A DNA stretch of 64,000 bases from Patescibacteria group bacterium (GCA_016860985.1 BOKM01000001.1:2310-66309), one strand, 5' to 3'; counted from the stretch's first letter, positions 29,829 through 51,635 are shown. Notes: generated from the letters alone by a model not told the origin. A program made the numbers and translations.

Positions 29829-29829
29829 T

Positions 29830-33275: not shown

Positions 33276-33278
33276 TGT

Positions 33279-33310
33279 TTGTGTGTAACGCGCAAATACA
33301 ATTGTATAAT
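33279..33310 (+). promoter_or_regulatory. candidate sigma70-type promoter (TG-TATAAT -10 element) for the ParB-methyltransferase operon
   Basis: TGTATAAT at 33303-33310, 18 nt upstream of the ATG at 33328. A weak TTGTGT -35-like hexamer lies 20 nt upstream. Confidence 0.35.
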
Positions 33311-33327
33311 TTTTTACTAACAATTTA

Positions 33328-35078: not shown

Positions 35079-38000
35079 ATGAGTGCTATCGAAAAATATA
35101 TTGAAGAAGTAATAAAGACTTATAAGACTGGGCATGCACGCGAGCATGCATATAGACCTGCGCTAGAGACTCTTATTGAAGAGATAAATCCCAATATAAA
35201 TGCAGTAAACGACCCTAAACAGCAAAAGGTGGGTGCCCCTGATTTCGTATTGCTTAAGGGGAAAACACCAATTGGTTACATTGAAGCAAAAGACATTGAT
35301 GTAAATCTGGAGAGCGAATTCAAAACAAAGAATCAATTTAATCGATATAAGTCTTCACTCAACAATATTTGTTTTACTAATTGTCTGGATTTTCATTTCT
35401 ATGTAAATGGAGAAGCAATCTCGAGAGTCAGTGTTGGAAAACTGGAAGCTGGAAAAATATCAATACTCACTGAAAACCTTCCTTTACTTGAAAGCTTGCT
35501 TGTCAATTTTACGACACTGAAGTCAATCTCAATTCGTAGTCCAAAAGAACTAGCATTCTTAATGGCTGAGAAGGCTAAAATGCTCAAAAATGTAGTCTAC
35601 TTATCGCTAAAAGAGGGATCTGAAGTGAAGGGACAGGTAGAACAACAATATGAAGTTTTTAAACAGATGTTAATCCACGACCTTTCATTGGAGCAATATG
35701 CTGATATATATGCCCAAACAGTCGCATATGGGATGTTTGCTGCGCGCTTCCATGATAAATCTCTTGATACATTTACAAGAGATGAGGCAAATAACTTATT
35801 GCCAAAATCAAATCCTTTTCTGAGAAATTTCTTTCAAACGATTGCTGGATACAATATCGATGAGCGTATTGTATGGATAGTTGATGATCTTGCAGAACTT
35901 TTCAATCACGTAAATGTCCGCGAATTGCTTGAAAATTTTGGAAAGGATACGAAAAGGAGCGATGTAATTGTCCATTTTTATGAAACTTTTCTTTCCGAAT
36001 ATGATGCAAAGATGCGCAAAGCCAGAGGTGTCTATTACACACCAGAGCCAGTCGTTGATTTCATTGTGAGAGCCGTTGATGATATTTTAAAAACTGAGTT
36101 TGGCATAACTGATGGCCTTGCTGATACAAGTAAAATTGACGTTGAAAAGGAAGTTCAGGGATTAAAGAAAAAGCAGAAGGTAAAGGAACATCGTGTCCAA
36201 GTACTTGACCCCGCAACTGGAACAGGTACATTTTTAGATCACGTTATCAAACATATCTACAACACAAAATTTAAAGGACAACAAGGTATTTGGCAAGGTT
36301 ATGTTGATGAGCACCTACTACCTAGGCTACATGGATTTGAAATTCTCATGGCAAGTTATTCAATGGCACATCTTAAACTTGATATTACTCTTGCAGAGAC
36401 TGGCTATGATTCATCTAAAGGGCAAGGGAAGCGTTTAGGTGTATACCTCACAAACTCACTCGAAGAGCCCGAAGCACATCAAAAAGACCTGTTTTCTCAA
36501 TGGCTAACGACTGAAAGTATGGAAGCAAACGAGGTGAAGAAGGAAAAGCCAATTATGGTGGTTATGGGAAATCCGCCTTATAGCGGTGAGAGTTCAAACA
36601 AAGGCAAATGGATTATGGATTTAATGGAAGACTACAAATTTGAACCAGGAGGCCAAGAAAAGTTAAACGAACGAAATCCCAAGTGGATCAATGATGATTA
36701 TGTGAAGTTTATTAGATTTGCGCAACATTATATCGAAAAAAATGGCGAGGGAATACTTGCATTTATTAATCCTCATGGCTTTTTAGATAATCCTACGTTC
36801 AGGGGAATGCGATGGAAGTTGTTATCTGTTTTCGACAAGATATATACTATTGATCTACACGGGAATACAAAAAAGAAGGAACTTACGCCCGATGGATCCA
36901 AGGACGAGAATGTGTTTGACATAATGCAAGGAGTAAGCATAAATCTTTTTGTAAAAAAGCGAGATTCAAGAAATAAGTTGGCAAATGTTTATTCTAAGGA
37001 TCTTTACGGTAAAAGAAATATAAAATATGATTTTCTGTCTACTAATAGAATTGGGGATATAAAATGGAACAAACTAGATCCCCATAATGACATGTATTTC
37101 TTTGTTCAGAAAGACTTTGAATTACTTAACGAATACGAACAAGGTATTAAGGTTAACGAGTTATTTCCAGTAAATAACGTTGGCATCGTTACTTCAAAAG
37201 ATGCGATTTTAGTTTCCGAAGATGAGGAGAAGTTACTCAAGAATGTACAAGAACATTATCAGATTAATACTGATAAAAACAAAGTTAAGAGAATTTCTTA
37301 TAGACCTTTTGATGATAGATTTGTCTATTATGATACAAAATTGATAGAGAGAGCAAGATACGAAGTAATGCAGCACTTAATAAAAGGTGCGAATTACGGA
37401 ATAATAATTCCAAGACAAGCAATTACAGACAACTATTCACACGTAAATATAACTCGGTATATGACTGACAATCGGTATCAATACAGCAATAAAGGAGTAA
37501 CAACAGAAGTTCCTCTCTATTTATACAAAGACTCCACACTACTTACAGCGACAAGAGAACCAAATCTTAGCAGAACGCTAATTACAGATATTGCCACAAA
37601 ACTAAAGCTCCAGTTTATGAACGACCATGAGCATGCAGATTCAGGAAAAGCAGGCACATTCAATCCATTAGATATTCTCGATTACATTTACGCAATCTTA
37701 CACTCACCATCATACCGAGAACGCTATAAAGAATTTCTTAAAATTGATTTTCCACGAATCCCGTTTACATCAGATCAAAAGTTATTCTGGTCTTTAGTAG
37801 AAAAAGGGAGAGAAATTCGACGATATCACTTAATGGAGCATACAAACAGCAGTTCATTAATAACACAGTACCCTGTTTCTGGTGAAAATGAAGTTATCAA
37901 CCCTAGATACTCCGATAATAAAGTTTGGATAAATGATACGCAGTATTTTGATGATGTACCTCAAATTGCATGGGGATTTTACATTGGTGGATACCAACCA

Positions 38001-38147
38001 GCACAGAAGTGGCTAAAGGATAGAAAAGGAACGAAGCTAACTTTTGACGATGTGTTACATTATCAACAGATTATTGTTGCCTTGACTAATACAGACAGAA
38101 TTATGCACGAGATTGATAGTTTGGCGATGACTTGGCCTCTAAAATAG
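35079..38147 (+). CDS. Type IIG restriction-modification enzyme (MmeI-like: N-terminal PD-(D/E)XK endonuclease + gamma-class N6-adenine methyltransferase + target-recognition domain)
   Basis: N-terminal GAPDFVLLKGKTPIGYIEAKD (PD...EAK), central LDPATGTGTF (motif I) and VVMGNPPYSGE (NPPY), about 400 aa of C-terminal target-recognition domain. 1022 aa. Confidence 0.75.
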   Translation: MSAIEKYIEEVIKTYKTGHAREHAYRPALETLIEEINPNINAVNDPKQQKVGAPDFVLLKGKTPIGYIEAKDIDVNLESEFKTKNQFNRYKSSLNNICFTNCLDFHFYVNGEAISRVSVGKLEAGKISILTENLPLLESLLVNFTTLKSISIRSPKELAFLMAEKAKMLKNVVYLSLKEGSEVKGQVEQQYEVFKQMLIHDLSLEQYADIYAQTVAYGMFAARFHDKSLDTFTRDEANNLLPKSNPFLRNFFQTIAGYNIDERIVWIVDDLAELFNHVNVRELLENFGKDTKRSDVIVHFYETFLSEYDAKMRKARGVYYTPEPVVDFIVRAVDDILKTEFGITDGLADTSKIDVEKEVQGLKKKQKVKEHRVQVLDPATGTGTFLDHVIKHIYNTKFKGQQGIWQGYVDEHLLPRLHGFEILMASYSMAHLKLDITLAETGYDSSKGQGKRLGVYLTNSLEEPEAHQKDLFSQWLTTESMEANEVKKEKPIMVVMGNPPYSGESSNKGKWIMDLMEDYKFEPGGQEKLNERNPKWINDDYVKFIRFAQHYIEKNGEGILAFINPHGFLDNPTFRGMRWKLLSVFDKIYTIDLHGNTKKKELTPDGSKDENVFDIMQGVSINLFVKKRDSRNKLANVYSKDLYGKRNIKYDFLSTNRIGDIKWNKLDPHNDMYFFVQKDFELLNEYEQGIKVNELFPVNNVGIVTSKDAILVSEDEEKLLKNVQEHYQINTDKNKVKRISYRPFDDRFVYYDTKLIERARYEVMQHLIKGANYGIIIPRQAITDNYSHVNITRYMTDNRYQYSNKGVTTEVPLYLYKDSTLLTATREPNLSRTLITDIATKLKLQFMNDHEHADSGKAGTFNPLDILDYIYAILHSPSYRERYKEFLKIDFPRIPFTSDQKLFWSLVEKGREIRRYHLMEHTNSSSLITQYPVSGENEVINPRYSDNKVWINDTQYFDDVPQIAWGFYIGGYQPAQKWLKDRKGTKLTFDDVLHYQQIIVALTNTDRIMHEIDSLAMTWPLK

Positions 38148-38192
38148 TTAGATTAGGAATAAATGACTTTAATAAGAAAGTTCTAGAAATAT

Positions 38193-38684
38193 ATGGTAAA
38201 CATACCTGATACTAACTTATTCATAGGTTCACGATTTGATCTAAGGTTAACCAATGAATCCGAATGGGCATACGCGCACGTTACAAAAAAGAGTCACCAA
38301 GAAAAACTTGGATATTTTAAAGCATTACCACCGACACATCCCAATTACATATTTTTTGAGGATACAAATCATATGTACGTGAATTGGGTAGATACACCAC
38401 AAGCAAGGTTCTACGATTTCCCAACTGGACAAGGTGTTCCTAATTTTATTCGTGTTTTAGATTTCATAGAAAAGTGGATTAAGAACCGCAAAGTGTTAGT
38501 GCATTGCGACCTTGGGGAATCTCGTAGCCCTACTACAAGCCTAACCTATTTGGCTAAACGTACTGAGATTTTACCAAACACTAGCTTTGAAGATGCTAGA
38601 AAAGAGTTTACTAAAATGTACCCAAGCTATAACCCGAGTGGAATCGCAAACTTTGTCTCAGATAATTGGAATTTGATCATATAA
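38193..38684 (+). CDS. dual-specificity/tyrosine protein phosphatase-like protein
   Basis: VLVHCDLGESRSPT is the CX5R(S/T) P-loop signature of Cys-based phosphatases. Confidence 0.7.
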   Translation: MVNIPDTNLFIGSRFDLRLTNESEWAYAHVTKKSHQEKLGYFKALPPTHPNYIFFEDTNHMYVNWVDTPQARFYDFPTGQGVPNFIRVLDFIEKWIKNRKVLVHCDLGESRSPTTSLTYLAKRTEILPNTSFEDARKEFTKMYPSYNPSGIANFVSDNWNLII

Positions 38685-38686
38685 TT

Positions 38687-40108
38687 ATGTTAACAAAGTC
38701 CGATTTTGTTGCATACATTGATTCCCCAAGGCACCTATGGGCAATCAAACACAATAAACTTACCGAAGTAGAACATAATGCATTTCTCAATCATTTGTTC
38801 GAGCAAGGATATGATGTTGAAGAGTATGGCGAAAAATATATTAGGGAAATATTGGTTCCAGAATACGAAGTTTCTAGCAACAATATCTTATTCCAACCAA
38901 CCGCCAATGATGGAGAGTTTGAAGCTCGGGCTGATGTACTGATCAAAAACCCTAAAACGAACAAATGGGACATGTACGAGATTAAAAGTTCGACAGAAGT
39001 AAAGAGACAGCACAGGTATGATGTTACGTTTCAGTCACTTGTATTTGGGAAGAATTATGAATTAGGCGAGATATTCATACTCCATCTGAACCCTGATTAT
39101 ACAAGAACCGGTGAAATCGATATTGCGAAACTTTTTACGAGAACTAATCTTACAAAAGTTGTCTCTGACTTAATTCATGAAGTCCAAATATTACGATACG
39201 AAGCGCTTGAGGTTATATCTGAAGACGACTATTCATTAGTACAGTCATGTATTCGCCCGAAATTATGCCCTTGCTTGGGAATTTGCCATCAAAACTTACC
39301 AGACTACTCCATATACGATATCAATAATCTGACAGCAAATGAAAAGAAAATTCGCGAACTGGAAAAATTGGGCTTTATTAGCATCGATGACGTTCCACTC
39401 AATTTCGCACTCTCAGAAAAACAAAGGTTTCAAGTTCAGATTGCGCAAAATAATCAAACATACATTAATTCTAATTCTATTGAGAAAAGTTTCGAAAAGT
39501 TACAGTATCCGATTTACTTTGTTGATTATGAATCGTTCAATCCGGCAATACCCATGTTTGATAGTTACAAGCCATACGACCAAATTCCATTCCAGTGGTC
39601 GCTTCACATAAAAGAAGATTTAACATCTGAATTGAAACATTATGAATTTATTGAAACACAACAGATTGATCCTATTGTTAATTTTCTAAGTGCTATGCAG
39701 GCCGTAGTCGGGACAAATGGTTCAATCATAGTATGGAACAAGGCATTCGAAGGCACGCAGAACAAAAGAATGGGGGAAATTCATTCAGAATTTAAAGATT
39801 ATTGTGAAAATATGAATTCGCGGCTATTTGATCTTATGGAAATTTTCAGAGATGGACTATACGCAGATCGAAAATTTAAAGGTAGTTATTCAATTAAAAA
39901 AGTTCTGCCAGTACTTGTACCTTCACTTAGTTACAAAGGTATGAATATTGCAGAGGGTGCGACAGCGATGGCGAGTTGGAATGATATGGTTTTCGGAAAT
40001 ACCGATGACGAACAAAAAGCACAGCTTAGGGCTGATCTTTTAAAGTACTGTGAGCTTGATACTTTGGCGATGGTAAGGATTTTCGAGAAACTCGCCGAAT
40101 TGCTTTAA
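38687..40108 (+). CDS. DUF2779-like protein (PD-(D/E)XK-type N-terminus plus C-terminal RNase-H-like region)
   Basis: EARADVLIK...YEIKSST (D/E-x-K) at the N-terminus, and YFVDYESFNPAIPMFDSYKPYDQIPFQWSLH matches the conserved DUF2779 motif as recalled. Start 2 nt after the phosphatase stop. Confidence 0.5.
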   Translation: MLTKSDFVAYIDSPRHLWAIKHNKLTEVEHNAFLNHLFEQGYDVEEYGEKYIREILVPEYEVSSNNILFQPTANDGEFEARADVLIKNPKTNKWDMYEIKSSTEVKRQHRYDVTFQSLVFGKNYELGEIFILHLNPDYTRTGEIDIAKLFTRTNLTKVVSDLIHEVQILRYEALEVISEDDYSLVQSCIRPKLCPCLGICHQNLPDYSIYDINNLTANEKKIRELEKLGFISIDDVPLNFALSEKQRFQVQIAQNNQTYINSNSIEKSFEKLQYPIYFVDYESFNPAIPMFDSYKPYDQIPFQWSLHIKEDLTSELKHYEFIETQQIDPIVNFLSAMQAVVGTNGSIIVWNKAFEGTQNKRMGEIHSEFKDYCENMNSRLFDLMEIFRDGLYADRKFKGSYSIKKVLPVLVPSLSYKGMNIAEGATAMASWNDMVFGNTDDEQKAQLRADLLKYCELDTLAMVRIFEKLAELL

Positions 40109-40146
40109 ACCCCAGACTTCATCCTTCTTTGCGTTACTTGTTGTGC

Positions 40147-40203
40147 ATGGAACAACCAACCAATACACCACTCACCTACTGCCTCTATACCAGAAAGTCA
40201 TCT
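40147..40203 (+). pseudogene. 5' remnant of a serine recombinase gene (first about 19 codons: MEQPTNTPLTYCLYTRKSS) with the conserved recombinase leader
   Basis: 40113-40146 aligns to the 34 nt upstream of both intact recombinase genes (…CAGACTTC.TCCTTCTTTGCG.TACT.GT.GT..ATGGAA). The coding similarity ends after the KSS codons, then a stop follows at 40222-40224. Confidence 0.55.
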
Positions 40204-40300
40204 ATGTTAAGTTACAAGTTTTAATAAGACCGTATTTATCCCAATTGTTGTTACAGTTCCTTCTTCAGCGTATAATTCAAGATAATGTGTTTTTGTAATC

Positions 40301-43300
40301 ATGAATACAGCCACTAAAGAGTTCATATATTGCAAACGCTGTAACGTCATCCTCCGATTGTCTAGTAATGACATGAAGGAAGAGAGTGTATCTTGTCCAA
40401 AATGTAACACCATAAATGAATTAGTTACTGCTGTATCCCCAGCGTACTCTCCTAGAAAAGTAAATTGTACGAACTGCAATTCAGTATTAATGCTAAATAA
40501 TAAGGAGCGATTACGTGGTGCTTTAATACATTGCCCAGAGTGCAAGATGGACTTCAATAACACCCTCGAGCGACTTAACGAGATTCCGGAAGAATTAACA
40601 GTTGAATCGACAGCGGATAATAATAACGAACAGTCAAATATTTCTAAGTTTTCTACTCCACCTATATACCACAACGATAGTGCTCTTTCTGAGAATACTG
40701 ATAACAACGAAGCTATTCAAAAGTCAGAAGCAAAGGTTTCGCAAATTAAGTTCGACAAAACATTTATTAAACGTTTACTTGACAAACTAAAAGTTGGGAA
40801 TGCGAGATCAATTCATCTCAATGCAGTTCCTGGTAGATCTGCCACGAGACTTGACCTGTATCAACTTTCTGATATTGATAAGGATTTGCCAAAAAACTTC
40901 CTCGACAAGTTGATGACTAACGATTCTTTTTCGTTCACGATTTCGTATGATAAAGTAAATCTCGGAGAAATTGACGATGAAGCGAAAAGAAAACTTGCTT
41001 TGATTACGAAACGATTGAACACAATAGTCATTGAAAATACAGACAGCCTTTTAGAGTATGGATTAGAGAATTTTGGTTTTGGATATCCATTACTAATCAA
41101 GAGAGATCACAATGATCCAAGCAAGGTCGTAAAAGCACCATTATTCATCTGGAATTTGAACTTAGAGAGGTCCACTCAAAATAAAAACACATGGGTTATA
41201 AAAAGAGGCGAAGATTACCCAATAAAAATCAATGAGCTTTTGATCTCTCACATAACAAAGGATGAATCAATTCAGATAGAAAAGATACCTAAAGATATTC
41301 TCGAAGATGGCATCCTGGATGAAAGTGAACTCCTTAAATTAACAAAGGTTATTTTATCCCAATTAAATACCACAAGCATCCCCTCTGAAATTAAGTTAGA
41401 AAAGTGCCCGGACGCAAAGGAGATTGATGATATCGCAAATTCGAAGCCATGGATTCAATGGAGTGGAATATTCGGCATCTATAGGTCTCAGAATGAAACA
41501 ATAATTCACAGTACTGAGGAGTTGCTTTCACGTTTAGATGAGTTTTCAAGTGAAAGTTTGACTTTAGAACCATTTCAAACATCCACAGTAACTTCAGTAG
41601 AAACAGACCCAAGCAAAGAGGAGATCGTAAACACACTAACAAAGGATGAAATAAAGTTGATCCAAGGACCACCAGGTACAGGAAAAAGCCAAAGTATTAC
41701 AGCTATTGTTTCAAATGTTTTATCCAACAATGGGAAATGTTTAATCGTATGCGAGAAGAAGACAGCATTAGATGTTATATACACGATCTTAACTAAAATA
41801 GGGTTAGGGCAATTATCCATACTTATTGACGATGTAAACAAGGATAGAAAGCTAGTAATTGAAAAAGCCAGAACAATACGAGAGAGTCCAGGAGCTCCAT
41901 ATTTCTCCCAGCGAAGTTATAATGACCTTTATGCAAAGTTTTCAGCATTGAAGGAGAAAATAAATTCAAAGTATTCTGAGTCACTAAGAAGCGTGCTCGG
42001 TGATTTAAACTGGAAACAATTAATTGGTTTGTATCTACGATATTCGAAAGAAGTTTGTTTCAACGATATTCTGGGAAGACTAAACTACAATGATTGTAAT
42101 TTCAACTACGATGAGTACTCTCTCTTGGTATCATTCATTGAGGAGGCAAGTCAACTTTATAGTGAATTGGGTAATGATTCTGAATCGGCATTTGAGATTG
42201 TAAACAAGTCGATTTTTTCAACGCGTTATAAATGGACTGAACACGAAAAATTAAAGAGCGTAACATCCGAGTATCTTGATATCATTTCTGCGTTAGAGAA
42301 ATTTACTGCAGGAAAAAAACAAGGCGAGTTTGAGAAATTTGGTGTATCAACTTTTGATGTGGATGCGATTAATAACTCACTGAGCTTAATCAATTTGCTT
42401 ATCGAATCACTCGAAAAAGCCGTCAAATCATTTAGAAAAGGAACAGGGCTCATCGGAAAGGAGTTTTGGTGCCAAAATGCTTTCACAAAATTCATAATGA
42501 GAGCAAAAGCTCTATACACAAATAAGTATAAGACTTCCCTTTTGTTGGAAAAAACCATAATAAAGCACTTTAAAGAAGCGAAGAGCTTAATCTATGGGCT
42601 TCGAAAATATAATATTTCAATTAGTGAATTGGTACAAAGTAGTAAATACGAAAGTACTGAAGAAGAGCTCTCATATATTGGGAATATTATTATTGAGGCA
42701 AACACTATCAGACTTCAGATTGAAGATCTCGCTAAATACCGAGCATTTCTTGAAGACATTGAAACGCGACTATTGAAACTTGAGTCCACAAACGTCGTGA
42801 ACTATAAGAATACTAGGCTCGCCGACATCAAAAGCCTCAGTTCACTAAACAAATTTAAGGATCAACTCAAGCTTTTGTTTGAGCGATTATCATTACATCT
42901 TGACTCATTTGAAAGTTATCATAACTGGAAATACTTTTTAGGAAATATAGATAATTATAAGACTAAACTTGTAACAGCATTTCTTGATATTCCTCCTGAA
43001 AATTGGAGAAATTTATTCATCGCATGGTATTACCGAGGAGCTTTGCATAATTTTGAGAGTAAATCGAGTATCGGATTTAATAATTCCGACACATCTCTGA
43101 ATCAATTAAGTGATTTTTATTCTGAATTGAAAAAACAACAAATTGATCAAATAAAGTTCACATGGAGTACAAATCAATTCAAGCTTTTTGAAAAAACCAC
43201 TTACAATTTCAACCTGCTTTACAATTTAAGAAAGAACCATGTTGGTCCCAAAAACTCTCTTAGGAACCTTATTGAAAAGGACTTTAATCTATTTACGACA

Positions 43301-44719
43301 ATGTTTCCAATAATCTTAACAAACCCTGCGGCGGCTAACGCCATCCTCCCTCTAAAACAAGGCCTTTTTACCGTAGTAATCTTTGATGAAGCGAGTCAGC
43401 TAAAAGTATCTGATACTTTTACGACATTCATTAGGGGCCAGTACAAAATCATTGCAGGAGACGAACACCAAATGCCACCTTCCTCTTATTTTCAAAGTAA
43501 TGCAGATTTACTGGACATTGACGAAGATGATACAAATGATGTCTTCACAGAGACTGACGAGCAAATTGCTTTGTCAGAAAGTGAATCACTGCTTCAATAT
43601 GCGACAGACTTACCACACGTTAATAAATCGTACTTAGATTTTCACTACAGATCCAATCATCAAGCCTTAATTAACTTCTCAAACAACGCTTTCTATGGTG
43701 GCAATTTAGTTACATTCCCTCATTTTGAAGTTTACAGACCAATTGAATTTAGAGCGGTAAATGGGCGCTATGAAACAAGAACAAACCCATCCGAGGTAGC
43801 AGAAATCTTGAAGATTCTTCAGATAGAGATTCACACAAATCAAAATGGGAAATACCCTTCAGTTGGCATAGCAACATTTAATATTAACCAAAGAAACTTA
43901 ATAATTGAAACACTAAACAGGGTTGCCGAAGAAGATCCCACCTTTGGAAGTAAGTTACGTGAACTGAAAGAGAACGGGTTGTTTGTCAAAAATCTAGAAA
44001 ATATTCAAGGTGACGAAAGAGATATTATTATTATTTCAACAACATATGGTATTCAGCCAGACGGAACCTTCTCCCAGAATTTTGCTAGATTAAATAGAAT
44101 CGAGGGGTATAAACTTCTAAATGTATTGATTACCCGAGCAAAACATAAACTATATGTATGCACCTCAATTCCAAAAAACAAGTACATTTCCTACCCTGAA
44201 TTAATTAAAAGTGAGGGCAACAATAAAAGAGGAATTCTTTACGCTTATTTAGCGTATTCAGAAGCAATATCCGCAGGTGATAACGATACTGCAGAAGGAA
44301 TTTTGGAATTACTAAAAACCCAAAGTTATGAAAAACCTAGAATAATGTCTGCGAACGACGGACTATCAGAATCACCCTTTGAAGAAGAAGTATACGACCT
44401 GTTATCAAAACATTTCCCTGCGGAAAAGATCATTCAGCAGCATAAAGTCGGTGGATTCCGCCTTGATTTTATAATTAAGTCCAAAATTAAGGATATCGTA
44501 ATCGAATGTGATGGTAAGGCATACCATTCCACAGAAGAAGCATATGCTTATGATATGTTTAGACAAAAGGAGTTGGAAAAAATGGGATTCATTATATATA
44601 GAATTTGGTCAACCAACTGGTTTAGAGACAAGGAATTAGAAATGAGAAAACTTTTGGGTTTTGTATCAATTACTAACAATGAAAGTCCTGAAGTATTACA
44701 AAAATCATTGCCACTCTAA
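40301..44719 (+). CDS. 1472-aa SF1B (Upf1/DNA2-like) helicase with N-terminal tandem zinc ribbons and a C-terminal DUF559/Vsr-like PD-(D/E)XK endonuclease domain
   Basis: Four CxxC pairs in the first 90 aa. Walker A GPPGTGKSQS, motif II VVIFDEASQL, motif VI VLITRAKHKLYV. C-terminal GFRLDFII...IVIECDGKAYH...FRQKELEKMGFIIYRIW fits DUF559. Confidence 0.7.
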   Translation: MNTATKEFIYCKRCNVILRLSSNDMKEESVSCPKCNTINELVTAVSPAYSPRKVNCTNCNSVLMLNNKERLRGALIHCPECKMDFNNTLERLNEIPEELTVESTADNNNEQSNISKFSTPPIYHNDSALSENTDNNEAIQKSEAKVSQIKFDKTFIKRLLDKLKVGNARSIHLNAVPGRSATRLDLYQLSDIDKDLPKNFLDKLMTNDSFSFTISYDKVNLGEIDDEAKRKLALITKRLNTIVIENTDSLLEYGLENFGFGYPLLIKRDHNDPSKVVKAPLFIWNLNLERSTQNKNTWVIKRGEDYPIKINELLISHITKDESIQIEKIPKDILEDGILDESELLKLTKVILSQLNTTSIPSEIKLEKCPDAKEIDDIANSKPWIQWSGIFGIYRSQNETIIHSTEELLSRLDEFSSESLTLEPFQTSTVTSVETDPSKEEIVNTLTKDEIKLIQGPPGTGKSQSITAIVSNVLSNNGKCLIVCEKKTALDVIYTILTKIGLGQLSILIDDVNKDRKLVIEKARTIRESPGAPYFSQRSYNDLYAKFSALKEKINSKYSESLRSVLGDLNWKQLIGLYLRYSKEVCFNDILGRLNYNDCNFNYDEYSLLVSFIEEASQLYSELGNDSESAFEIVNKSIFSTRYKWTEHEKLKSVTSEYLDIISALEKFTAGKKQGEFEKFGVSTFDVDAINNSLSLINLLIESLEKAVKSFRKGTGLIGKEFWCQNAFTKFIMRAKALYTNKYKTSLLLEKTIIKHFKEAKSLIYGLRKYNISISELVQSSKYESTEEELSYIGNIIIEANTIRLQIEDLAKYRAFLEDIETRLLKLESTNVVNYKNTRLADIKSLSSLNKFKDQLKLLFERLSLHLDSFESYHNWKYFLGNIDNYKTKLVTAFLDIPPENWRNLFIAWYYRGALHNFESKSSIGFNNSDTSLNQLSDFYSELKKQQIDQIKFTWSTNQFKLFEKTTYNFNLLYNLRKNHVGPKNSLRNLIEKDFNLFTTMFPIILTNPAAANAILPLKQGLFTVVIFDEASQLKVSDTFTTFIRGQYKIIAGDEHQMPPSSYFQSNADLLDIDEDDTNDVFTETDEQIALSESESLLQYATDLPHVNKSYLDFHYRSNHQALINFSNNAFYGGNLVTFPHFEVYRPIEFRAVNGRYETRTNPSEVAEILKILQIEIHTNQNGKYPSVGIATFNINQRNLIIETLNRVAEEDPTFGSKLRELKENGLFVKNLENIQGDERDIIIISTTYGIQPDGTFSQNFARLNRIEGYKLLNVLITRAKHKLYVCTSIPKNKYISYPELIKSEGNNKRGILYAYLAYSEAISAGDNDTAEGILELLKTQSYEKPRIMSANDGLSESPFEEEVYDLLSKHFPAEKIIQQHKVGGFRLDFIIKSKIKDIVIECDGKAYHSTEEAYAYDMFRQKELEKMGFIIYRIWSTNWFRDKELEMRKLLGFVSITNNESPEVLQKSLPL

Positions 44720-44849
44720 ATCCTTCAACGTTACTAATGTTTGGTAACTTTATTCAAGAAATTGAATCTAATAACTGCTATCCATAACTCATCGCAGTTT
44801 TGTTATATACCTACTAGACTTCCTCCCTTCTTTGCGGTACTAGTGTTGT

Positions 44850-46190
44850 ATGGAAAACACAATAAAAGTACCTGAATTACGCTACTGTCTCTATGCTCGG
44901 AAATCCTCAGAGTCTGACGAGAAGCAAGCAATGAGTATTGATAGCCAGCTTCACGAAATGAGTGATTTGGCAAAGCGAGATAATATCAACATCGTCGACA
45001 TCATTACAGAAAGCCATTCTGCTAAAGAAACTGGGCAACGACCACAGTTTAACCTTATGGTTGAAGGAATTAGTAGCGGAAAGTATAACGGCATTATAAC
45101 GTGGGCTCCAGATAGAATTTCGAGAAATGCTGGTGACTTAGGTCGAATAGTCGACTTAATGGATCAAGGCAAACTCTCACTTATTAAGACGCATTCCCAA
45201 ACATTTACCAACAACCCAAACGAGAAGTTCCTCCTCATGATTCTCTGCTCCCAAGCAAAACTAGAAAACGACAATAGAGGAATTAATGTAAAGCGTGGTC
45301 TAAAGAGTAAATGTCAGACAGGAGTAAGGCCAACAATGCCACCTCTCGGATATATTAACATCATGCGAGCAAATAGAATCTCAACAGTAATCATAGACCC
45401 AGAAAAGGCTCCAATTATTAAACAGATGTTCACGTACGTTGCTGACAAAGGACTTTCAGGAAGAACCATCCGAAAATGGCTAAGAAAAATTGGATTCAAA
45501 TCAAGAACAGGAAAAGACCTCGTTTTAAGTCTAATCTACAAAATGCTCAAAAATCCCTTTTATTATGGATATTTTAAATACGGTGAGAAAATATACAAAG
45601 GTTCACATGAACCTCTCATATCCAAACAAGTATTTGATAAAGTACAAATACAGTTGCAAACAACACCACGACAGTGGAATAAACAGCTCTACCCTTTTAA
45701 GAAGATTTGCAAATGTGGAAGTTGTGGCAGTAGTATAACTGCAGAAACGAAGTTTCGAGTAGTTCAGAATGGAGACGTTCATCCTCATATCTATTATCAC
45801 TGCAATAGGATAAATGACTATGATTGTCATGAACCCTATATAACGGAAGCTGAACTCATACAGCAACTTGTTGCTCTTATGCCACAAATCAAACTCGACA
45901 AAGAATACATTTGGAACCTATTCCAAGACGAAATCAAACGACTGAATCATCTACAACAAATAATGAATCTGAAAAATAGTGTAGCTTTTGAGACAACTCC
46001 ACATAGGAACAAGTCCAAATCCATAAAGGCGATTAGTGGAAAGGAAACCGAAATGATCAGAGATTATTTCCTACACATTCTTCAGTATGGAACACCGGAA
46101 GAAAGGCAGAACATATTAAGGGGCGTTAAGACGATATTCAAATTGAGAGATCGAGAACTAATGATCAAAAAAACGTCATTGATTACCTAA
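44850..46190 (+). CDS. large serine recombinase, paralog of 22505-23845
   Basis: Same domain signature (YCLYARKSSESDEKQ, CKCGSCGSS zinc ribbon). Identity to copy 1 is mosaic at the DNA level: about 88% in the 5' third, about 99% in the middle. Confidence 0.85.
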   Translation: MENTIKVPELRYCLYARKSSESDEKQAMSIDSQLHEMSDLAKRDNINIVDIITESHSAKETGQRPQFNLMVEGISSGKYNGIITWAPDRISRNAGDLGRIVDLMDQGKLSLIKTHSQTFTNNPNEKFLLMILCSQAKLENDNRGINVKRGLKSKCQTGVRPTMPPLGYINIMRANRISTVIIDPEKAPIIKQMFTYVADKGLSGRTIRKWLRKIGFKSRTGKDLVLSLIYKMLKNPFYYGYFKYGEKIYKGSHEPLISKQVFDKVQIQLQTTPRQWNKQLYPFKKICKCGSCGSSITAETKFRVVQNGDVHPHIYYHCNRINDYDCHEPYITEAELIQQLVALMPQIKLDKEYIWNLFQDEIKRLNHLQQIMNLKNSVAFETTPHRNKSKSIKAISGKETEMIRDYFLHILQYGTPEERQNILRGVKTIFKLRDRELMIKKTSLIT

Positions 46191-47458: not shown

Positions 47459-47600
47459 TTTTACGTATTACAGGACTACGTTTACACATTTCCGAAAGTA
47501 CCTCTCAAAACAATCGGAGACTTGGTCACTAATTGATAGGACTGACGGGACTTGAAGGAATTCAATGCAAAATGCGGGACATGTGAGTCTGGAACATAAA
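47432..47600 (+). repeat. copy C (5' part) of the conserved noncoding element. Its 3' part (GAGACA...GACAGTATAAAAAAGAG) lies at 47830-47866 after an inserted micro-ORF.
   Basis: 47432-47545 aligns with 24612-24720. The core GATAGGACTGACGGGACTTGAAG is at 47538-47560. Confidence 0.55.
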
Positions 47601-47646
47601 AGCACTTAATATTGACTACGCTGGCATTTATATTGTACAAAAATAA

Positions 47647-47811
47647 ATGAAAGACAATTCTGTAAAAAAATTTTTAATACTAGTTGGTGTAGGCGCAGTG
47701 ATTGGATATGGAGTATTAGGTGACTTTGAAGGTGCATTCAGGGGAGGATGCGGTGGTGCTGTATTTGGCTTTTTCGCTGCATTAATTGATGACCAGTTAA
47801 AAAATTCTTAG
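47647..47811 (+). CDS. 54-aa glycine-zipper membrane micro-protein (not in the ORF track because it is under 60 aa)
   Basis: MKDNSVKKFLILVGVGAVIGYGVLGDFEGAFRGGCGGAVFGFFAALIDDQLKNS is one TM helix with GxxxG repeats, sitting between the two halves of element copy C. No clear Shine-Dalgarno sequence. Confidence 0.25.
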   Translation: MKDNSVKKFLILVGVGAVIGYGVLGDFEGAFRGGCGGAVFGFFAALIDDQLKNS

Positions 47812-47884
47812 GTCTGTTATTTTTTTATCGATATTAAACGAGACAAATGGGACAGTATAAAAAAGAGAAATATTGAATTGCTAA

Positions 47885-48607
47885 TCAGTTATTCTTCTCA
47901 CTTGCAATCTCATTTAATGCTTCTCTCGTAAAATCATTAATATTATTAAGAATACTTTTCCTGACCAGATAATCAGTTAGATCATTAGTATCAGATTGAA
48001 ATTGACTCAATTGATACTTCATCTCTGCAGTGATTACCATTTTTACATACTCAAAAGTCGAATCGTTATTGATTGGATTATGCTTTTCTTTATTAAAGTA
48101 GAAATCATTACCATCGTAAGACCAGCCAGACCTTGCTTTAATCGCGTTGACCAGAGAATTAATCAATTCTGAATTTTGATAACGTGAATAAGTGCGAGCA
48201 CTGCGTAACAACATTTGAATCGAGTACTTCACATCTTCAGTAATAACCCATTGTGTTAAAGTTTCTTGCTTTCTTAGATTTTCTATATTCTCATTCGACC
48301 ACTCGCAGTTTTGAAGAATTAAAGCAGTGACGTGAATAGGGTTTGATGTTCTCTTCACGGTCTCAAATATTCTTTTTGCATCAACATCAGTAAGTTGGTT
48401 AAAAGGCTCACGATATCTTAACCAATTAACTATATAATTTAATGCTTCCTCGTGTGATTTACCTGTCTGAGTAAGAGTCTTGTAAGACGCCATAGACTGG
48501 GTATAGACTGACCATTTTAACGAAAAAGTGATTCGAGGAATAAGGTATATGGCCGTGATGAGTACTAATAGGAATATAAACCACCCCCACATGCAGTATT
48601 CAAGCAA
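47885..48607 (-). CDS. hypothetical protein with an N-terminal TM anchor
   Basis: 240-aa ORF. N-terminal WGWFIFLLVLITAIYLIP. Confidence 0.4.
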   Translation of the reverse strand: MLEYCMWGWFIFLLVLITAIYLIPRITFSLKWSVYTQSMASYKTLTQTGKSHEEALNYIVNWLRYREPFNQLTDVDAKRIFETVKRTSNPIHVTALILQNCEWSNENIENLRKQETLTQWVITEDVKYSIQMLLRSARTYSRYQNSELINSLVNAIKARSGWSYDGNDFYFNKEKHNPINNDSTFEYVKMVITAEMKYQLSQFQSDTNDLTDYLVRKSILNNINDFTREALNEIASEKNN

Positions 48608-48700
48608 TTTAATTATAACTTTTATACTTAATTAGTAATCGCGTCAATACAACGACGTTTTGGTTTATCAATAATGCAGCTGGGGGTATATAATTGAATC

Positions 48701-49423
48701 GTGTCATTGCAGAAAACAACGATAATAGATACCAAGTACAACTTCCAAGCAGAGACTGAACCTCTCGACGCTGACAAATACAGCAAAACACTTCAAGAAT
48801 ACCATCGATTACTCTGGAGCAAACCACTTCCAAGGGGAAAGATGTTTGAGCTATCAAAGATTGGTCAAAACAGGCTTTATCATAAATCTGAGTTAGGTGA
48901 AGTTACTCTATCAAGTGACAGAGCAATTGCGACTTTTTCCCGATGGAAGAAAATGAGCCGTATAGTTAATATGATTCCCAGAGAGAAGATTACGGAATTC
49001 GTTAATACAACCGAGACAATCGGAGCTATTATGATTTGGCCGAGTAATAGAATCGGACAAATGACAACAATCAATGGAGAACGTGGATTTAACAGAAAAA
49101 TTAGTGACCGTTTAGACTTAACTATTGAATGCATTAGGCGCTACTATTTGGGGATTCCAAGTCCGCTTTATGTAGTATTTAAAAGATACGCTAGCTTCTT
49201 TTCTTTGTTTGGTGACTTTCGCGGATACATTGATTTCTTTCTACTCCAAGATGCAGTTTCTACTGATTATTTGAATGTAAATACTTCGCAACCATTCGAT
49301 AATTTCGAATCACAACCACTACCAAAGAATGTTGATGAGTATATTGAATATATGGAGAATACAATTGAGTTTGTTAAAGCAAGAAATCGAAGGATTGAGC
49401 AATATTCGATAAATTTGCAATAA
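48701..49423 (+). CDS. hypothetical protein (first gene of a two-gene unknown operon)
   Basis: 240-aa ORF. The next gene starts 10 nt after its stop. Confidence 0.4.
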   Translation: MSLQKTTIIDTKYNFQAETEPLDADKYSKTLQEYHRLLWSKPLPRGKMFELSKIGQNRLYHKSELGEVTLSSDRAIATFSRWKKMSRIVNMIPREKITEFVNTTETIGAIMIWPSNRIGQMTTINGERGFNRKISDRLDLTIECIRRYYLGIPSPLYVVFKRYASFFSLFGDFRGYIDFFLLQDAVSTDYLNVNTSQPFDNFESQPLPKNVDEYIEYMENTIEFVKARNRRIEQYSINLQ

Positions 49424-49432
49424 TATATCTAC

Positions 49433-50194
49433 ATGAATTACTGGAACAAGCTATACGACGAAATCTTAGGTTACTATTTCTGGGAACCCCAGCATCTAGG
49501 AAGGCAGAAAGGTGACAAGAACATCTTTAAAATATCAGATTACAAGAAACTTATTGAGCACTCAAAAAAACTAGAAGTTTCTCTGAATCATCAACTTTCG
49601 CTTTTCTTTAGCCTTGCTCCGAATGAGTTTATTGAAAAATTTTTTAACCAATCGTTTTCCAGACAATTCAATGATTCATTTGTATTTGATATTGCCGAGA
49701 TAAATGATTTTGTTGTCGGATTAAAGGATTTTTCACAACCTGACTTCTGGTTTGTTGGAGAAAAGCATATCATTGCGGTCGAAATGAAACTGGAGGCTCA
49801 ATCATCGGTACTTCAGTTTTTAAAATATTTAACTCTAAACATTCTTTATCAAGAAAGCAAGAAGACCAACAAAGAGTTTCACTTGCTTTACTTAACAAGA
49901 AACGGTATTGACCAATTGTGGGACAAAAGAGATGTCAATTTTGAGAACCTATATGACAAGGTACATGATATCGATCTAAACGCATTCAAGGGGAAAGGTT
50001 CTATAAAGCTTGAGTCATACAGACAACAAGTACTATCTTTAGTGCAAAATACGGAACAACTTGTTGCACATACCAATTACAAATCGTTTGGCGATTTACT
50101 GAAGCAGGAATTAGATACTACTGAAAATGAGATATTTAAGAAACTTCTATTAGGGACTATTGATGAGTTAAAAGACCGGAACTTGATCAATTAG
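49433..50194 (+). CDS. hypothetical protein, possible PD-(D/E)XK fold
   Basis: DFWFVGEKHIIAVEMKLEA resembles a D...E-x-K nuclease core. Weak. Confidence 0.35.
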   Translation: MNYWNKLYDEILGYYFWEPQHLGRQKGDKNIFKISDYKKLIEHSKKLEVSLNHQLSLFFSLAPNEFIEKFFNQSFSRQFNDSFVFDIAEINDFVVGLKDFSQPDFWFVGEKHIIAVEMKLEAQSSVLQFLKYLTLNILYQESKKTNKEFHLLYLTRNGIDQLWDKRDVNFENLYDKVHDIDLNAFKGKGSIKLESYRQQVLSLVQNTEQLVAHTNYKSFGDLLKQELDTTENEIFKKLLLGTIDELKDRNLIN

Positions 50195-50292
50195 TTGTGA
50201 TAGCTCCAAATTTATTCTAAAAAACATTTAGTGAACAGACATTAGATTTAGGTGTTTTAATAAAACCAAGAATGTTGAATTTATACAACAAT

Positions 50293-51114
50293 TTACTTAT
50301 GTAAATTCCAAATAAGTATTGATGTATGGAGAACAAATATTGCCTCATCTTTTGTAGGTTGCCTTCCTTTGCCTTCAGTATGTTGACCACGAATATTGCT
50401 TACTTCTTTTAGTAAATTCGTTAGTAAATTCTTAGGTGTTACAATTGTATCTCCCTTATATGCGAGCACCACTGGATTTTCTTCAAAGGAATGAATAAAT
50501 TTCTTGAGTTGTGGTTTAGGATCATTCGGGAAATAGATTTTCCCTAAAAAGCTTTCGAGGAAGTCGCATACTCTTGTTACAGTTTTCTCATAATCAGGGG
50601 ATCGTGAATAGCAATATTTCCATGCATCACTTAACAAAGAACTACTTTCTAAGGCAGTTTTTGAAACTTCATTGACTATCTTATCCACCCTTTCAATTAA
50701 AATGTATGCACCTTTGTCATACTCAGAAGCGTCTTTCTCTGATTTAAATACATCATATGCTGATCCAGACACTTCAAGTATTTTCGATAAGTTTTGGGCA
50801 TCACGTTCATCAGCGAAATTCTGAAGGAGTAAGGTAAGAACGTTGGCAGTTCTGTCGGAATCTTCAAGAGCAAAACTTATAAAATCATGAAGCTTATTTG
50901 GTACTTTTTCCCTTAGGATGAGCTGGAAATTATTATGAACAGACGAAACAATATATCGATAATTGTAGTAACTATCAATTTCCACAACACCGTTTGTTGT
51001 ATTCAACACATCTGCAATCCAATCCGACAAAGGATTATGCATGAATACCGGAAAATCTCTAACTAATACACTATTGTCAAAGTCGTATTTTTTCCCAAAA
51101 GGTTTGAATTTCAT
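50293..51114 (-). CDS. hypothetical protein (third gene of a three-gene unknown operon)
   Basis: 273-aa ORF, 9 nt downstream of the zinc-ribbon gene. Confidence 0.4.
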   Translation of the reverse strand: MKFKPFGKKYDFDNSVLVRDFPVFMHNPLSDWIADVLNTTNGVVEIDSYYNYRYIVSSVHNNFQLILREKVPNKLHDFISFALEDSDRTANVLTLLLQNFADERDAQNLSKILEVSGSAYDVFKSEKDASEYDKGAYILIERVDKIVNEVSKTALESSSLLSDAWKYCYSRSPDYEKTVTRVCDFLESFLGKIYFPNDPKPQLKKFIHSFEENPVVLAYKGDTIVTPKNLLTNLLKEVSNIRGQHTEGKGRQPTKDEAIFVLHTSILIWNLHK

Positions 51115-51123
51115 ATCAAATAA

Positions 51124-51603: not shown

Positions 51604-51635
51604 TCTAAATATGAATTATAACTGAACCCTTGGTA

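What the first reader, a model, noticed from the sequence alone, without database searches (positions are those of the whole stretch)
40301..44719. Giant zinc-ribbon / SF1B helicase / DUF559 endonuclease fusion as stand-alone cargo
A single 1472-aa polypeptide combines four N-terminal CxxC zinc-ribbon units, a Upf1/DNA2-like helicase core (GPPGTGKSQS, DEASQ, motif VI) and a C-terminal Vsr/DUF559-like PD-(D/E)XK nuclease. It sits between a recombinase stump and an intact recombinase. Helicase-nuclease fusions of this build are recurrent in defence islands but are mostly uncharacterised. It has no partner gene here, so it is a candidate single-gene system.
Basis: partly seen in the sequence, partly recalled or inferred. 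Interest (0 to 1): 0.6.

Follow-up and report, generated by a model that had tools for sequence, protein, structure and literature searches.

The report
Hhe/ProA-like helicase–nuclease defence gene
A real 1472-residue gene fuses a Upf1-type motor to a DNA-cutting domain and sits alone in a mobile defence island; it is a diverged member of an already catalogued single-gene anti-phage family (Hhe / ProA / PDC-S37), so it is solid but not a new kind of system.

Summary
ORF 40301-44719 (+) encodes 1472 aa: two N-terminal zinc ribbons (four CxxC, residues 11-81), a DUF4011-like domain, a Upf1/IGHMBP2/DNA2-like SF1B helicase split by a ~440-aa helical insert, and a C-terminal Vsr/MTES_1575 nuclease. 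All catalytic motifs are invariant in 40 homologues. DUF3320 is absent. A ~90-nt remnant of a serine-recombinase 5' end lies upstream and an intact recombinase lies downstream.

The protein belongs to a known superfamily. Its best PADLOC match is candidate PDC-S37 (E 2e-130), followed by Hhe. NCBIfam gives ProA 413 bits (cutoff 1500) and Hhe 313 bits (cutoff 2000), so it is an equivalog of neither.

The closest relatives (~60% identity) are in Patescibacteria MAGs, the next tier in Bacteroidota. No neighbour is conserved across 78 related loci, which fits an autonomous single-gene unit, and neighbours often carry other defence genes. The double zinc ribbon is private to this protein and its 99% copies. 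The same module is fused to TerB_N in one other protein.

The likely mechanism is inferred, not shown: ATP-driven 5'-3' translocation on invader nucleic acid, coupled to DNA cleavage.

Verdict: a new member of a known kind, of modest interest.

The parts
40114..40203 (+). Remnant ('stump') of a large serine recombinase gene: about 33 nt of 5'UTR plus codons 1-19 (MEQPTNTPLTYCLYTRKSS). The frame then diverges and stops at 40222-40224.
   Evidence: Aligns with the 5' regions of both intact recombinase genes. blastn matches 40114-40188 to 44816-44894 at 73%. Conserved in L001/L002, where the ATG has mutated to ATA.
40248..40276 (+). Sigma-70-like promoter candidate, TTGTTA-17-TATAAT, about 25 nt upstream of the start codon.
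   Evidence: Matches 10 of 12 consensus positions. This is a consensus match only, and the region has fewer such sites than shuffled sequence.
40301..44719 (+). Complete ORF of 1472 aa: Hhe/ProA/PDC-S37-like helicase-nuclease.
   Evidence: Versus the 97.5%-identical copy in L001 there are 33 synonymous and 20 nonsynonymous codon differences, indicating purifying selection.
40301..40570 (+). N-terminal double zinc ribbon (residues 1-90; CxxC at 11, 32, 56, 78).
   Evidence: The module is 47% identical to the N-terminus of P0121, a TerB_N protein. It is absent from all other homologues examined apart from the 99% twin P0001. In residues 1-146, comparison with L001 shows 4 synonymous changes and 1 nonsynonymous change (A144S, in the linker), so none falls in the ribbons.
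40571..40738 (+). Low-complexity, probably disordered linker (residues 91-146).
   Evidence: pLDDT is about 27-38. There is about 3% identity to homologues and one indel versus L001.
40739..41590 (+). Conserved DUF4011-like alpha/beta domain (residues 147-430); start of the family-wide core.
41591..41887 (+). RecA1 lobe, N-terminal part: motif I (Walker A, G456-Q464) and motif Ia (C484-E-K486).
41888..43210 (+). All-helical insert of about 440 residues (530-970) between motifs Ia and II; the fastest-evolving part of the core.
   Evidence: AF2 predicts long confident helices. Identity to homologues is only 25%. It holds 11 of the 20 nonsynonymous changes versus L001.
43211..44200 (+). RecA1 C-terminal part and RecA2 lobe (residues 971-1300): motifs II (DEASQ 1029-1033), III, IV, V and VI.
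44366..44665 (+). Vsr-like PD-(D/E)xK nuclease, MTES_1575/DUF559 type (residues 1356-1455): E1361, D1389, E1402-C-D1404-G-K1406, H1409, D1418, R1421.
   Evidence: Pfam MTES_1575 at E 2e-23. Residues invariant across homologues. Profile hit to PDB 3HRL at E 3.5e-6.
44816..44894 (+). 5'UTR and start of the intact recombinase gene. It forms a diverged direct repeat with the stump, so the two bracket the helicase gene.
44850..46190 (+). Intact large serine recombinase (446 aa), 96% identical in protein to the copy at 22505-23845.
   Evidence: Pfam Resolvase, Recombinase and Zn_ribbon_recom. NCBIfam gives CcrB/XisF-like matches below cutoff.

Best explanation
**What it is.** A self-contained, single-gene anti-phage/anti-MGE enzyme of the DUF4011 - SF1B helicase - Vsr-type nuclease superfamily. 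That superfamily contains Hhe, NCBIfam ProA and PADLOC candidate PDC-S37. The gene is carried as terminal cargo of a serine-recombinase mobile element inside a dense defence island.

**Shown.**
- Intact, invariant ATPase/helicase and nuclease motifs.
- A Upf1-like fold.
- Autonomy: no conserved partner gene.
- A mobile, defence-rich context.
- Purifying selection on the ORF.

**Inferred mechanism.**
1. The conserved DUF4011-like domain and the variable N-terminal module (here two zinc ribbons) recognise a feature of invader nucleic acid or an infection-induced DNA-metabolism intermediate.
2. The SF1B motor loads on a single strand and translocates 5'->3' using ATP.
3. The large, fast-evolving helical insert gates or scaffolds this step.
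4. Translocation delivers or activates the C-terminal Vsr-like endonuclease. It nicks or cleaves DNA and so stops phage replication, either directly or through abortive damage to the cell.
For: **Domains and motifs.**

**Family links.**
- PADLOC: PDC-S37 at E 2.4e-130 and Hhe at E 8e-69.
- NCBIfam: ProA 413 bits and Hhe 313 bits.
- A bona fide ProA (1781 bits) has the same domain order and is 24-30% identical.

**What is published on Hhe.**
- It is a single gene with helicase and nuclease domains, active against lambda, T3, T7 and PhiV-1.
- Its nuclease mutant E1731A loses defence.
- Several T7 class II DNA-metabolism genes behave as triggers.
- Phage-encoded counter-genes exist.

**Autonomy.**
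- No neighbour family is shared by more than 5 of 78 loci.
- The window's neighbours are absent from relatives' loci.
- ORFs downstream of relatives are unrelated to each other.

**Defence context in the window.** Type II, Type IIG and Type ISP R-M systems, an OLD nuclease and a PD-Lambda-3-like gene.

**Defence context near relatives.** In a random sample of 148 neighbours, strong hits include Drt4, Drt6, HamA, SduA, DpdF, PsyrT, PDC-S01/S06, Type I MTase and WYL. A Bil-like ubiquitin-type system and an AAA_13 protein lie next to P0002.

**Mobility.**
- The 8.5-kb block 37603-46111 is 97.5% identical in two other samples with a different upstream context.
- A serine recombinase is adjacent in 4 relatives' loci.

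**Selection.** 33 synonymous versus 20 nonsynonymous codon differences.
Against: - No experiment exists for this subfamily. PDC-S37 is only a candidate, and no paper in the library mentions it.
- I found no primary paper for ProA.
- Scores are far below the equivalog cutoffs of both Hhe and ProA, so function is transferred across about 25-30% identity.
- The mechanism of Hhe itself is unresolved. One study even suggests a link to NAD+/adenine metabolism.
- Upf1-like motors often act on RNA, so the substrate is uncertain.
- Some superfamily members sit in conserved chromosomal positions: within-genus synteny in Chryseobacterium-like and Capnocytophaga genomes, and a core DUF4011 gene flanking a P. 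aeruginosa hotspot. Not every member need be a mobile defence gene.
- The neighbourhood-enrichment test had no matched control.
Confidence: 0.65

Rival explanations
1. It is an RNA-directed surveillance enzyme. Like UPF1, SETX and the Mokosh MkoA/MkoC helicases, the motor tracks along phage transcripts or R-loops rather than DNA, and the Vsr-like domain cuts the DNA or hybrid it reaches. This would still be defence, but with a different substrate and logic.
For: The best structural matches are RNA helicases: UPF1, IGHMBP2, SETX/Sen1, Aquarius and ZNFX1. PADLOC also gives MkoA (82 bits) and MkoC (70 bits).
Against: DNA2 and RecD2 match almost as well, and IGHMBP2 and SETX also act on DNA (my own knowledge). 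The nuclease is of the Vsr/DUF559 DNA-endonuclease type. The Mokosh PLD nuclease is absent. The reported T7 triggers of Hhe are DNA-metabolism genes.
Confidence: 0.15
2. It serves the mobile element rather than the host. It would be a replication, recombination or inter-element competition factor of the serine-recombinase element, for example processing element DNA or attacking rival elements or the host chromosome.
For: It lies directly next to the recombinase gene here and in four relatives' loci. It travels with the element in an 8.5-kb block. ParB-MTase and terS-like genes lie nearby in the window, L017 and L051.
Against: Most relatives (74 of 78 loci) have no adjacent serine recombinase or ParB-MTase. 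The family is almost absent from phage genomes (3 weak hits among 50,697 records) and from IMG/VR (one full-length relative). The slot next to an integrase is a typical accessory-gene position (my own knowledge). Anti-MGE activity would in any case be a form of defence.
Confidence: 0.1
3. It is a housekeeping DNA-repair or replication helicase-nuclease, analogous to DNA2 or AddAB, that happens to lie in an island.
For: The DNA2-like combination of a 5'-3' SF1B motor and a PD-(D/E)xK nuclease. Within-genus conserved synteny in some Bacteroidota. A core DUF4011 gene in P. aeruginosa.
Against: There is no family-wide synteny. Distribution is patchy, with near-identical copies in different contexts. 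The domain order is the reverse of DNA2. The gene sits between recombinase sequences inside a block of R-M and OLD genes. Its GC content is 35.3% against 39.1% for the host-like flank. Its nearest named relatives are annotated as anti-phage.
Confidence: 0.07
4. It is a decaying, non-functional remnant, like the recombinase stump beside it.
For: The adjacent stump shows that this junction has undergone deletion or rearrangement.
Against: The ORF is an uninterrupted 1472 codons. Every catalytic residue is intact. Synonymous changes outnumber nonsynonymous ones versus the close relative.
Confidence: 0.03

Closest known systems
PADLOC phage-defence candidate PDC-S37 (single-gene candidate; PADLOC-DB v2)
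   Same: It is the best-scoring defence model (E 2.4e-130, 434.6 bits, two matched stretches; the best covers residues 732-1460, i.e. insert, RecA lobes and nuclease). It is also a single-gene architecture.
   Different: The profile is 1550 positions long and extends about 200 positions past the end of the best matched stretch, so it probably carries a C-terminal extension that this protein lacks. PDC-S37 is a computational candidate, and no paper in the library mentions it. The double zinc ribbon is not part of the family core.
Hhe (HheA) single-gene anti-phage system, first described by Gao et al. 2020 as cited; NCBIfam NF042953
   Same: A single polypeptide with the same domain order: DUF4011-type N-terminal region, SF1 helicase (AAA_11/AAA_12), Vsr/MTES_1575 nuclease. 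The nuclease is needed for defence in Hhe (E1731A). HMM similarity: 230 bits in PADLOC and 313 bits in NCBIfam.
   Different: It scores 313 bits against the equivalog cutoff of 2000, and only the RecA2 and nuclease part aligns well. It is 300-450 residues shorter than the Hhe profiles (1797 and 1911 positions). It has no DUF3320/wHTH tail. Its N-terminus is different. Its lineage is Patescibacteria/Bacteroidota rather than Enterobacteria.
ProA ('anti-phage protein ProA', NCBIfam NF058533); example WP_039047814.1 on A. baumannii plasmid pOXA58_005078
   Same: The same domain order, DUF4011 - AAA_11 - AAA_12 - MTES_1575, and it also ends just after the nuclease. Like this gene it lies next to an integrase. 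It is the best NCBIfam match, at 413 bits.
   Different: It scores 413 bits against the cutoff of 1500. Pairwise identity is 30% over residues 987-1452 and 24% over 224-589. ProA has an extra N-terminal region of about 350 aa and no zinc ribbons. I found no primary literature on ProA.
MTES_1575-type proteins (Anantharaman et al. 2013, PMC3710099)
   Same: The C-terminal nuclease belongs to the 'novel Vsr-REase' family that the paper defined as fused to an SF-I helicase.
   Different: MTES_1575 itself also carries HEPN, transglutaminase and two wHTH (DUF3320) domains. None of these is present here.
Upf1-like SF1B helicases (UPF1, IGHMBP2, SETX/Sen1, Aquarius, ZNFX1, DNA2)
   Different: The insert is about 440 residues and all-helical, far larger than the Upf1 1B/1C domains (my own knowledge of Upf1). 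A Vsr nuclease is fused at the C-terminus, whereas DNA2 has its nuclease at the N-terminus. This is a prokaryotic mobile-island gene.
Hachiman (HamAB) and other nuclease-helicase defence systems
   Same: The logic is a helicase sensor coupled to a nuclease effector that responds to the state of DNA (abstracts).
   Different: Hachiman is a two-protein system with an unrelated helicase (HamB, a DEAD/DEAH-type helicase by my own knowledge) and an unrelated nuclease (HamA, DUF1837). There was no PADLOC Ham hit for this protein.

Membership tests
Hhe (NCBIfam NF042953 / PADLOC Hhe) | Equivalog-level sequence match to the Hhe model | tested here: not met
   312.9 bits against the curated cutoff of 2000. 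The PADLOC Hhe hit (230 bits) covers mainly residues 977-1445.
Hhe (NCBIfam NF042953 / PADLOC Hhe) | N-terminal DUF4011 domain | tested here: inconclusive
   PF13195 scores 21.0 bits against the gathering cutoff of 22.2, over residues 135-315. Homologues at 40-49% identity carry PF13195 in their precomputed Pfam lists.
Hhe (NCBIfam NF042953 / PADLOC Hhe) | SF1 helicase core (AAA_11/AAA_12) with intact ATPase motifs | tested here: met
Hhe (NCBIfam NF042953 / PADLOC Hhe) | C-terminal Vsr-type (MTES_1575/DUF559) nuclease with conserved acidic residues | tested here: met
   MTES_1575 scores 82.7 bits against a cutoff of 38.2. E1361, D1389, E1402 and D1404 are invariant. The domain profile hits 3HRL.
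Hhe (NCBIfam NF042953 / PADLOC Hhe) | Works as a single gene (no obligatory partner) | tested here: met
   No neighbour is conserved across 78 loci or among metagenomic contexts. This is genomic evidence only.
Hhe (NCBIfam NF042953 / PADLOC Hhe) | Confers phage resistance that depends on the nuclease | not testable with these tools
   Requires cloning and phage challenge. Shown for E. coli Hhe (E1731A) in the paper read.
ProA (NCBIfam NF058533) | Equivalog-level sequence match to the ProA model | tested here: not met
   413.1 bits against the cutoff of 1500. A true ProA scores 1781 bits. Pairwise identity is 24-30%.
ProA (NCBIfam NF058533) | Domain order DUF4011 - AAA_11 - AAA_12 - MTES_1575 | tested here: met
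   The same order appears in the reference ProA and in the query.
PADLOC PDC-S37 | Significant match to the PDC-S37 HMM as the best defence model | tested here: met
   E 2.4e-130, 434.6 bits, two stretches, top of the list. The tool shows no curated cutoff, and the profile's last ~200 positions lie beyond the best matched stretch.
DUF3320-bearing helicase-nucleases (MTES_1575 type) | C-terminal paired wHTH (DUF3320) | tested here: not met
   There is no DUF3320 hit at E <= 0.01. The protein ends 20 residues after the nuclease. DUF3320 overlaps the two wHTH domains according to PMC3710099.
Upf1-like SF1B helicase superfamily | Two RecA lobes with SF1B motifs I-VI and a Upf1-like fold | tested here: met
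Mokosh (MkoA+MkoB / MkoC) | PLD-family nuclease partner or domain | tested here: not met
   Only the helicase parts match MkoA and MkoC (82 and 70 bits). There is no PLD domain in the protein or its neighbours.
DNA2 / Nhi-type nuclease-helicases | Nuclease N-terminal to the SF1B helicase (architecture recalled from my own knowledge) | tested here: not met
   The nuclease is C-terminal (residues 1356-1455). There was no Nhi model among the PADLOC hits.

The most novel reading that the evidence does not exclude
The protein represents a third, Patescibacteria/Bacteroidota-centred branch of the Hhe/ProA superfamily. In this branch a swappable N-terminal module sets trigger specificity. The module here is a tandem zinc ribbon, which is otherwise found fused to a TerB_N domain.

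Separately, the gene is bracketed by diverged direct repeats of the recombinase 5' region (40114-40203 and 44816-44894). This could record cassette-like capture of defence genes at the 5' end of the serine-recombinase gene. That would be a dedicated cargo-exchange hotspot, rather than a random deletion within a tandem array of elements.
Probability: 0.12. Interest if true: 0.6.

Novelty: new member of a known kind. Interest (0 to 1): 0.3.

Why it matters
Hhe-type helicase-nucleases are widespread: this search found more than 1000 homologues, and 517 plasmid records carry distant relatives. They are reported to defend as single genes, yet how they sense infection and what they cut is still unknown.

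This protein offers a compact, diverged representative for comparative and structural work. It has no DUF3320 tail and all catalytic residues are intact. It has a clearly delimited variable N-terminal module and a fast-evolving helical insert.

It also adds to the picture of serine-recombinase elements carrying stacked defence genes in what may be a reduced-genome (Patescibacteria-like) lineage. It does not reveal a new kind of system.

Tried and rejected
**Partner-gene hypotheses**
1. DSPc phosphatase and DUF2779 nuclease as partners: rejected. They co-travel only in the 97.5%-identical copies. They occur in 0 and 2 of 78 related loci.
2. A small ORF plus a ~170-190-aa ORF downstream of relatives as a partner: rejected. 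They share no similarity with each other.
3. De novo clustering of flanking ORFs found only within-genus synteny, in at most 5 loci.

**Literature**
4. 'PDC-S37' gave 0 papers. I found no relevant paper for ProA. Gao et al. 2020 is not held, so facts about Hhe are taken from citing papers.

**Structure searches**
6. The AFDB library was unavailable.

**Host taxonomy**
7. Two flank genes gave only unnamed metagenomic hits. The Patescibacteria assignment rests only on the helicase's nearest relatives.

**Phage origin**
8. There were 3 weak hits among 50,697 phage records and one full-length relative, at 33% identity, in IMG/VR. It is not a typical phage gene.

**The 62-nt repeat**
9. It is neither a tRNA nor a known RNA family.

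**Other**
10. One tblastn call failed on a frame error and was not repeated.

Full report
**1. The observation**

The ORF 40301..44719 (+) is real and encodes 1472 aa.

Its four CxxC motifs are at residues 11, 32, 56 and 78. They are the only CxxC motifs in the protein and hold half of its 16 cysteines. They make two zinc ribbons, each with two knuckles. AF2 predicts beta-hairpins there at moderate confidence.

Pfam recovers these domains:
- MTES_1575 (residues 1360-1452): 82.7 bits, cutoff 38.2.
- DUF559: 28.5 bits.
- AAA_12: 52.1 bits.
- AAA_11: 47.1 bits.
- DUF4011: 21.0 bits, just below the cutoff of 22.2.
- DUF3320: no hit. The protein ends 20 residues after the nuclease.

I aligned the query with 39 full-length homologues of 38-60% identity. 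Every SF1B motif is invariant:
- I: GPPGTGKSQ 456-464
- Ia: C484-E-K486
- II: DEASQ 1029-1033
- III: GDxHQMPP 1053-1060
- V: QGDExD 1236-1241
- VI: NVxxTRAK 1274-1281

The nuclease residues are also invariant: F1360-E1361, D1389, E1402-C-D1404-G, H1409, D1418 and R1421. K1406 is at least 90% conserved.

**2. Structure**

- *Helical insert.* Between motifs Ia and II lies an all-helical insert of about 440 residues (530-970), predicted confidently.
- *Nuclease.* A profile of the C-terminal domain hits the DUF559 structure 3HRL (E 3.5e-6), with the D / ExDG / H / D..R positions aligned.

**3. Conservation profile**

| Region | Residues | Identity to the 39 homologues |
|---|---|---|
| Zinc ribbons and linker | 1-146 | 3% |
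| DUF4011-like domain | 147-430 | 56% |
| RecA lobes | 431-529 and 971-1300 | 63-69% |
| Helical insert | 530-970 | 25% |
| Nuclease | 1356-1455 | 64% |

Against the 97.5%-identical copy in L001 there are 33 synonymous and 20 nonsynonymous codon differences. Eleven of the 20 nonsynonymous changes fall in the insert, and none falls in the zinc ribbons. The ORF, including its N-terminus, is therefore under purifying selection, and the insert is the least constrained part.

**4. The N-terminal module is private**

- Among the 66 of the 120 best homologues that could be anchored on the core motif, 37 have no N-terminal extension and 23 have a single ribbon. Only the 99% twin P0001 has four CxxC (examples).
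- A search of 1.84 billion representative proteins with residues 1-100 found 20 hits at E <= 1e-3.
- The only close hit, P0121 (47% identity over 81 residues), joins the same tandem ribbon to a TerB_N domain.
- This looks like a swappable adaptor, not part of the catalytic core.

**5. Family placement**

| Library and model | Score for this protein | Reference |
|---|---|---|
| PADLOC PDC-S37 | E 2.4e-130, 434.6 bits | |
| PADLOC Hhe | E 8e-69 | |
| PADLOC MkoA / MkoC | helicase parts only | |
| NCBIfam 'anti-phage protein ProA' | 413 bits, cutoff 1500 | |
| NCBIfam 'DUF4011 domain-containing anti-phage protein Hhe' | 313 bits, cutoff 2000 | |

- An Acinetobacter plasmid protein scores 1781 bits for ProA. 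It has the same domain order and is 24-30% identical to the query.
- Three relatives of the query, from Patescibacteria, an unnamed JGI metagenome contig and Bacteroidales, likewise score only 427-467 bits for ProA.
- The protein therefore belongs to the Hhe/ProA/PDC-S37 superfamily. It is an equivalog of neither named member.
- The nuclease family was defined by Anantharaman et al. 2013 as a Vsr-type REase fused to SF-I helicases and to paired wHTH domains, which overlap DUF3320. Those wHTH domains are missing here.

**6. Distribution and synteny**

- More than 1000 homologues were found.
- Apart from one 99% cluster, the closest (54-62% identity) are almost all from Patescibacteria MAGs. A second tier (30-45%) is Bacteroidota.
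- Distant relatives (26-39%), annotated as DUF4011 or DUF3320 proteins, occur on 517 plasmid records.
- Phage genomes and IMG/VR contigs almost lack the family.
- Across 78 reference-genome loci, the window's neighbours are not conserved: DSPc 0, DUF2779 2, Type IIG 1. No flanking family occurs in more than 5 loci, and those few reflect within-genus synteny.
- ORFs downstream of four metagenomic relatives are unrelated to each other.
- A random sample of 148 neighbours gave strong PADLOC hits to Drt4, Drt6, HamA, SduA, DpdF, PsyrT, PDC-S01, PDC-S06, Type I MTase, MADS and WYL regulators. One relative lies beside a Bil-like ubiquitin-type system and an AAA_13 protein. I had no matched control for this sample.

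**7. Local context**

Positions 1-18.4 kb look like host chromosome. From 18.5 kb to the window end lies a mosaic island:
- A Type II R-M system at 19256-21725.
- Two tandem units. Each consists of a serine recombinase, an att-like repeat, about 8.6 kb of cargo, a ParB-methylase with a terS-like gene, and then defence genes.
- The two recombinases are 96% identical in protein.
- Unit A ends with a Type IIG enzyme, a DSPc-like phosphatase, a DUF2779 protein, the recombinase stump (40114-40203) and the helicase-nuclease.
- Unit B starts with the recombinase at 44850. It carries a PD-Lambda-3-like gene, an OLD nuclease and a Type ISP enzyme.

The stump matches the 5'UTR and the first 19 codons of the intact genes. 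It is decaying in the close relatives. The block 37603-46111 recurs at 97.5% identity in two other samples with a different upstream context. A serine recombinase is also adjacent in four relatives' loci, and ParB-MTase in two.

Two readings of the stump remain open:
- A third, mostly deleted unit of a tandem array, of which only the terminal cargo gene survived.
- Cassette-like insertion at the recombinase 5' end.

**8. Mechanism**

*Shown:*
- An intact SF1B ATPase and a Vsr-type nuclease in one polypeptide.
- No conserved partner gene.
- A mobile, defence-rich setting.
- Purifying selection on the ORF.

*From papers on Hhe:*
- It defends as a single gene and needs its nuclease.
- T7 DNA-metabolism genes act as triggers.
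- Phages encode counter-genes.

*Inferred for this protein:*
1. The DUF4011-like domain and the zinc ribbons recognise the target.
2. The motor translocates 5'-3' with ATP.
3. The helical insert gates this step.
4. The nuclease cuts DNA.

The substrate (DNA or RNA) and the outcome (direct or abortive defence) cannot be decided here.

**9. Verdict**

The gene is a diverged new member of a known, partly validated kind of single-gene defence enzyme. Its distinguishing marks are a private double zinc ribbon, the lack of DUF3320, and a probable Patescibacteria-type host. Interest is modest (0.3).

Noticed in passing
window 24774-33384 and 47596-56207: The two tandem island units share their flanks (att-like repeat; ParB-MTase + terS-like). 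The cargo between those flanks shows no nucleotide or protein similarity, yet it is 8611 vs 8612 nt long with the same GC content (35.4% / 35.6%). I have no explanation; it may be coincidence.
   Followed up: partly
window 18490-18551, 24712-24773, 47534-47595: A 62-nt repeat (core GATAGGACTGACGGGACTTGAAG...AAATGCGG...GTCTGG.AC) sits at the host/island junction and downstream of each recombinase module. It is not a tRNA and matches no Rfam family. It may be an att-site remnant or an unknown regulatory or RNA element.
   Followed up: partly
window 38193-40108: A DSPc-like phosphatase (163 aa) overlaps by 19 nt a DUF2779 / TM0106-type RecB-like nuclease (480 aa). This could be a two-gene module. 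DUF2779 also lies near helicase homologues in L005/L006 (there with a NERD protein), L068 and L073, but it is not a conserved partner.
   Followed up: partly
window 35079-38147 vs L001 4713-7847: The Type IIG R-M enzyme is 89-97% identical to its counterpart in L001 except for about 600 nt (36991-37603), which find no match. This suggests a swapped target-recognition region.
   Followed up: no
window 56133-64000: A second ParB-methylase, a terS-like gene and a terL-like gene (Terminase_6C) are followed directly by a Type ISP restriction enzyme of more than 1544 aa (PADLOC 2122 bits) that runs off the window. It is unclear whether this is a prophage, a satellite or a degraded element.
   Followed up: partly
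window 53281-55960: A 228-aa protein resembling PD-Lambda-3_A (E 1e-12) converges on an OLD-family AAA_15 + TOPRIM nuclease (666 aa, on the opposite strand); their 3' ends overlap by 8 nt. They may be one or two further defence units.
   Followed up: no
window 30834-33104: A 756-aa protein has only a weak AAA_16 (STAND-like) hit and no PADLOC or NCBIfam match. It lies in cargo A beside NUDIX, HD, APH and a truncated-looking class II aaRS-like gene. It is an uncharacterised candidate NTPase.
   Followed up: no
L087 (A. baumannii plasmid pOXA58_005078) 2663-7819: This bona fide ProA (1781 bits) aligns 'IIVDG' where the query family has the invariant 'ECDG' nuclease motif. In addition, the FRLDF aspartate has no aligned counterpart in the BLAST alignment. 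Either the ProA nuclease site differs or the alignment is off in that region.
   Followed up: no
L003/L004 1776-3610: A 59%-identical relative (P0002) lies in an element that carries a Bil-like ubiquitin-type system (Multi_ubiq, ThiF/E1, BubE), a LexA-like repressor, a serine recombinase, an AAA_13 ATPase and ParB-methylases. This is the same kind of element as in the window, with different cargo.
   Followed up: no
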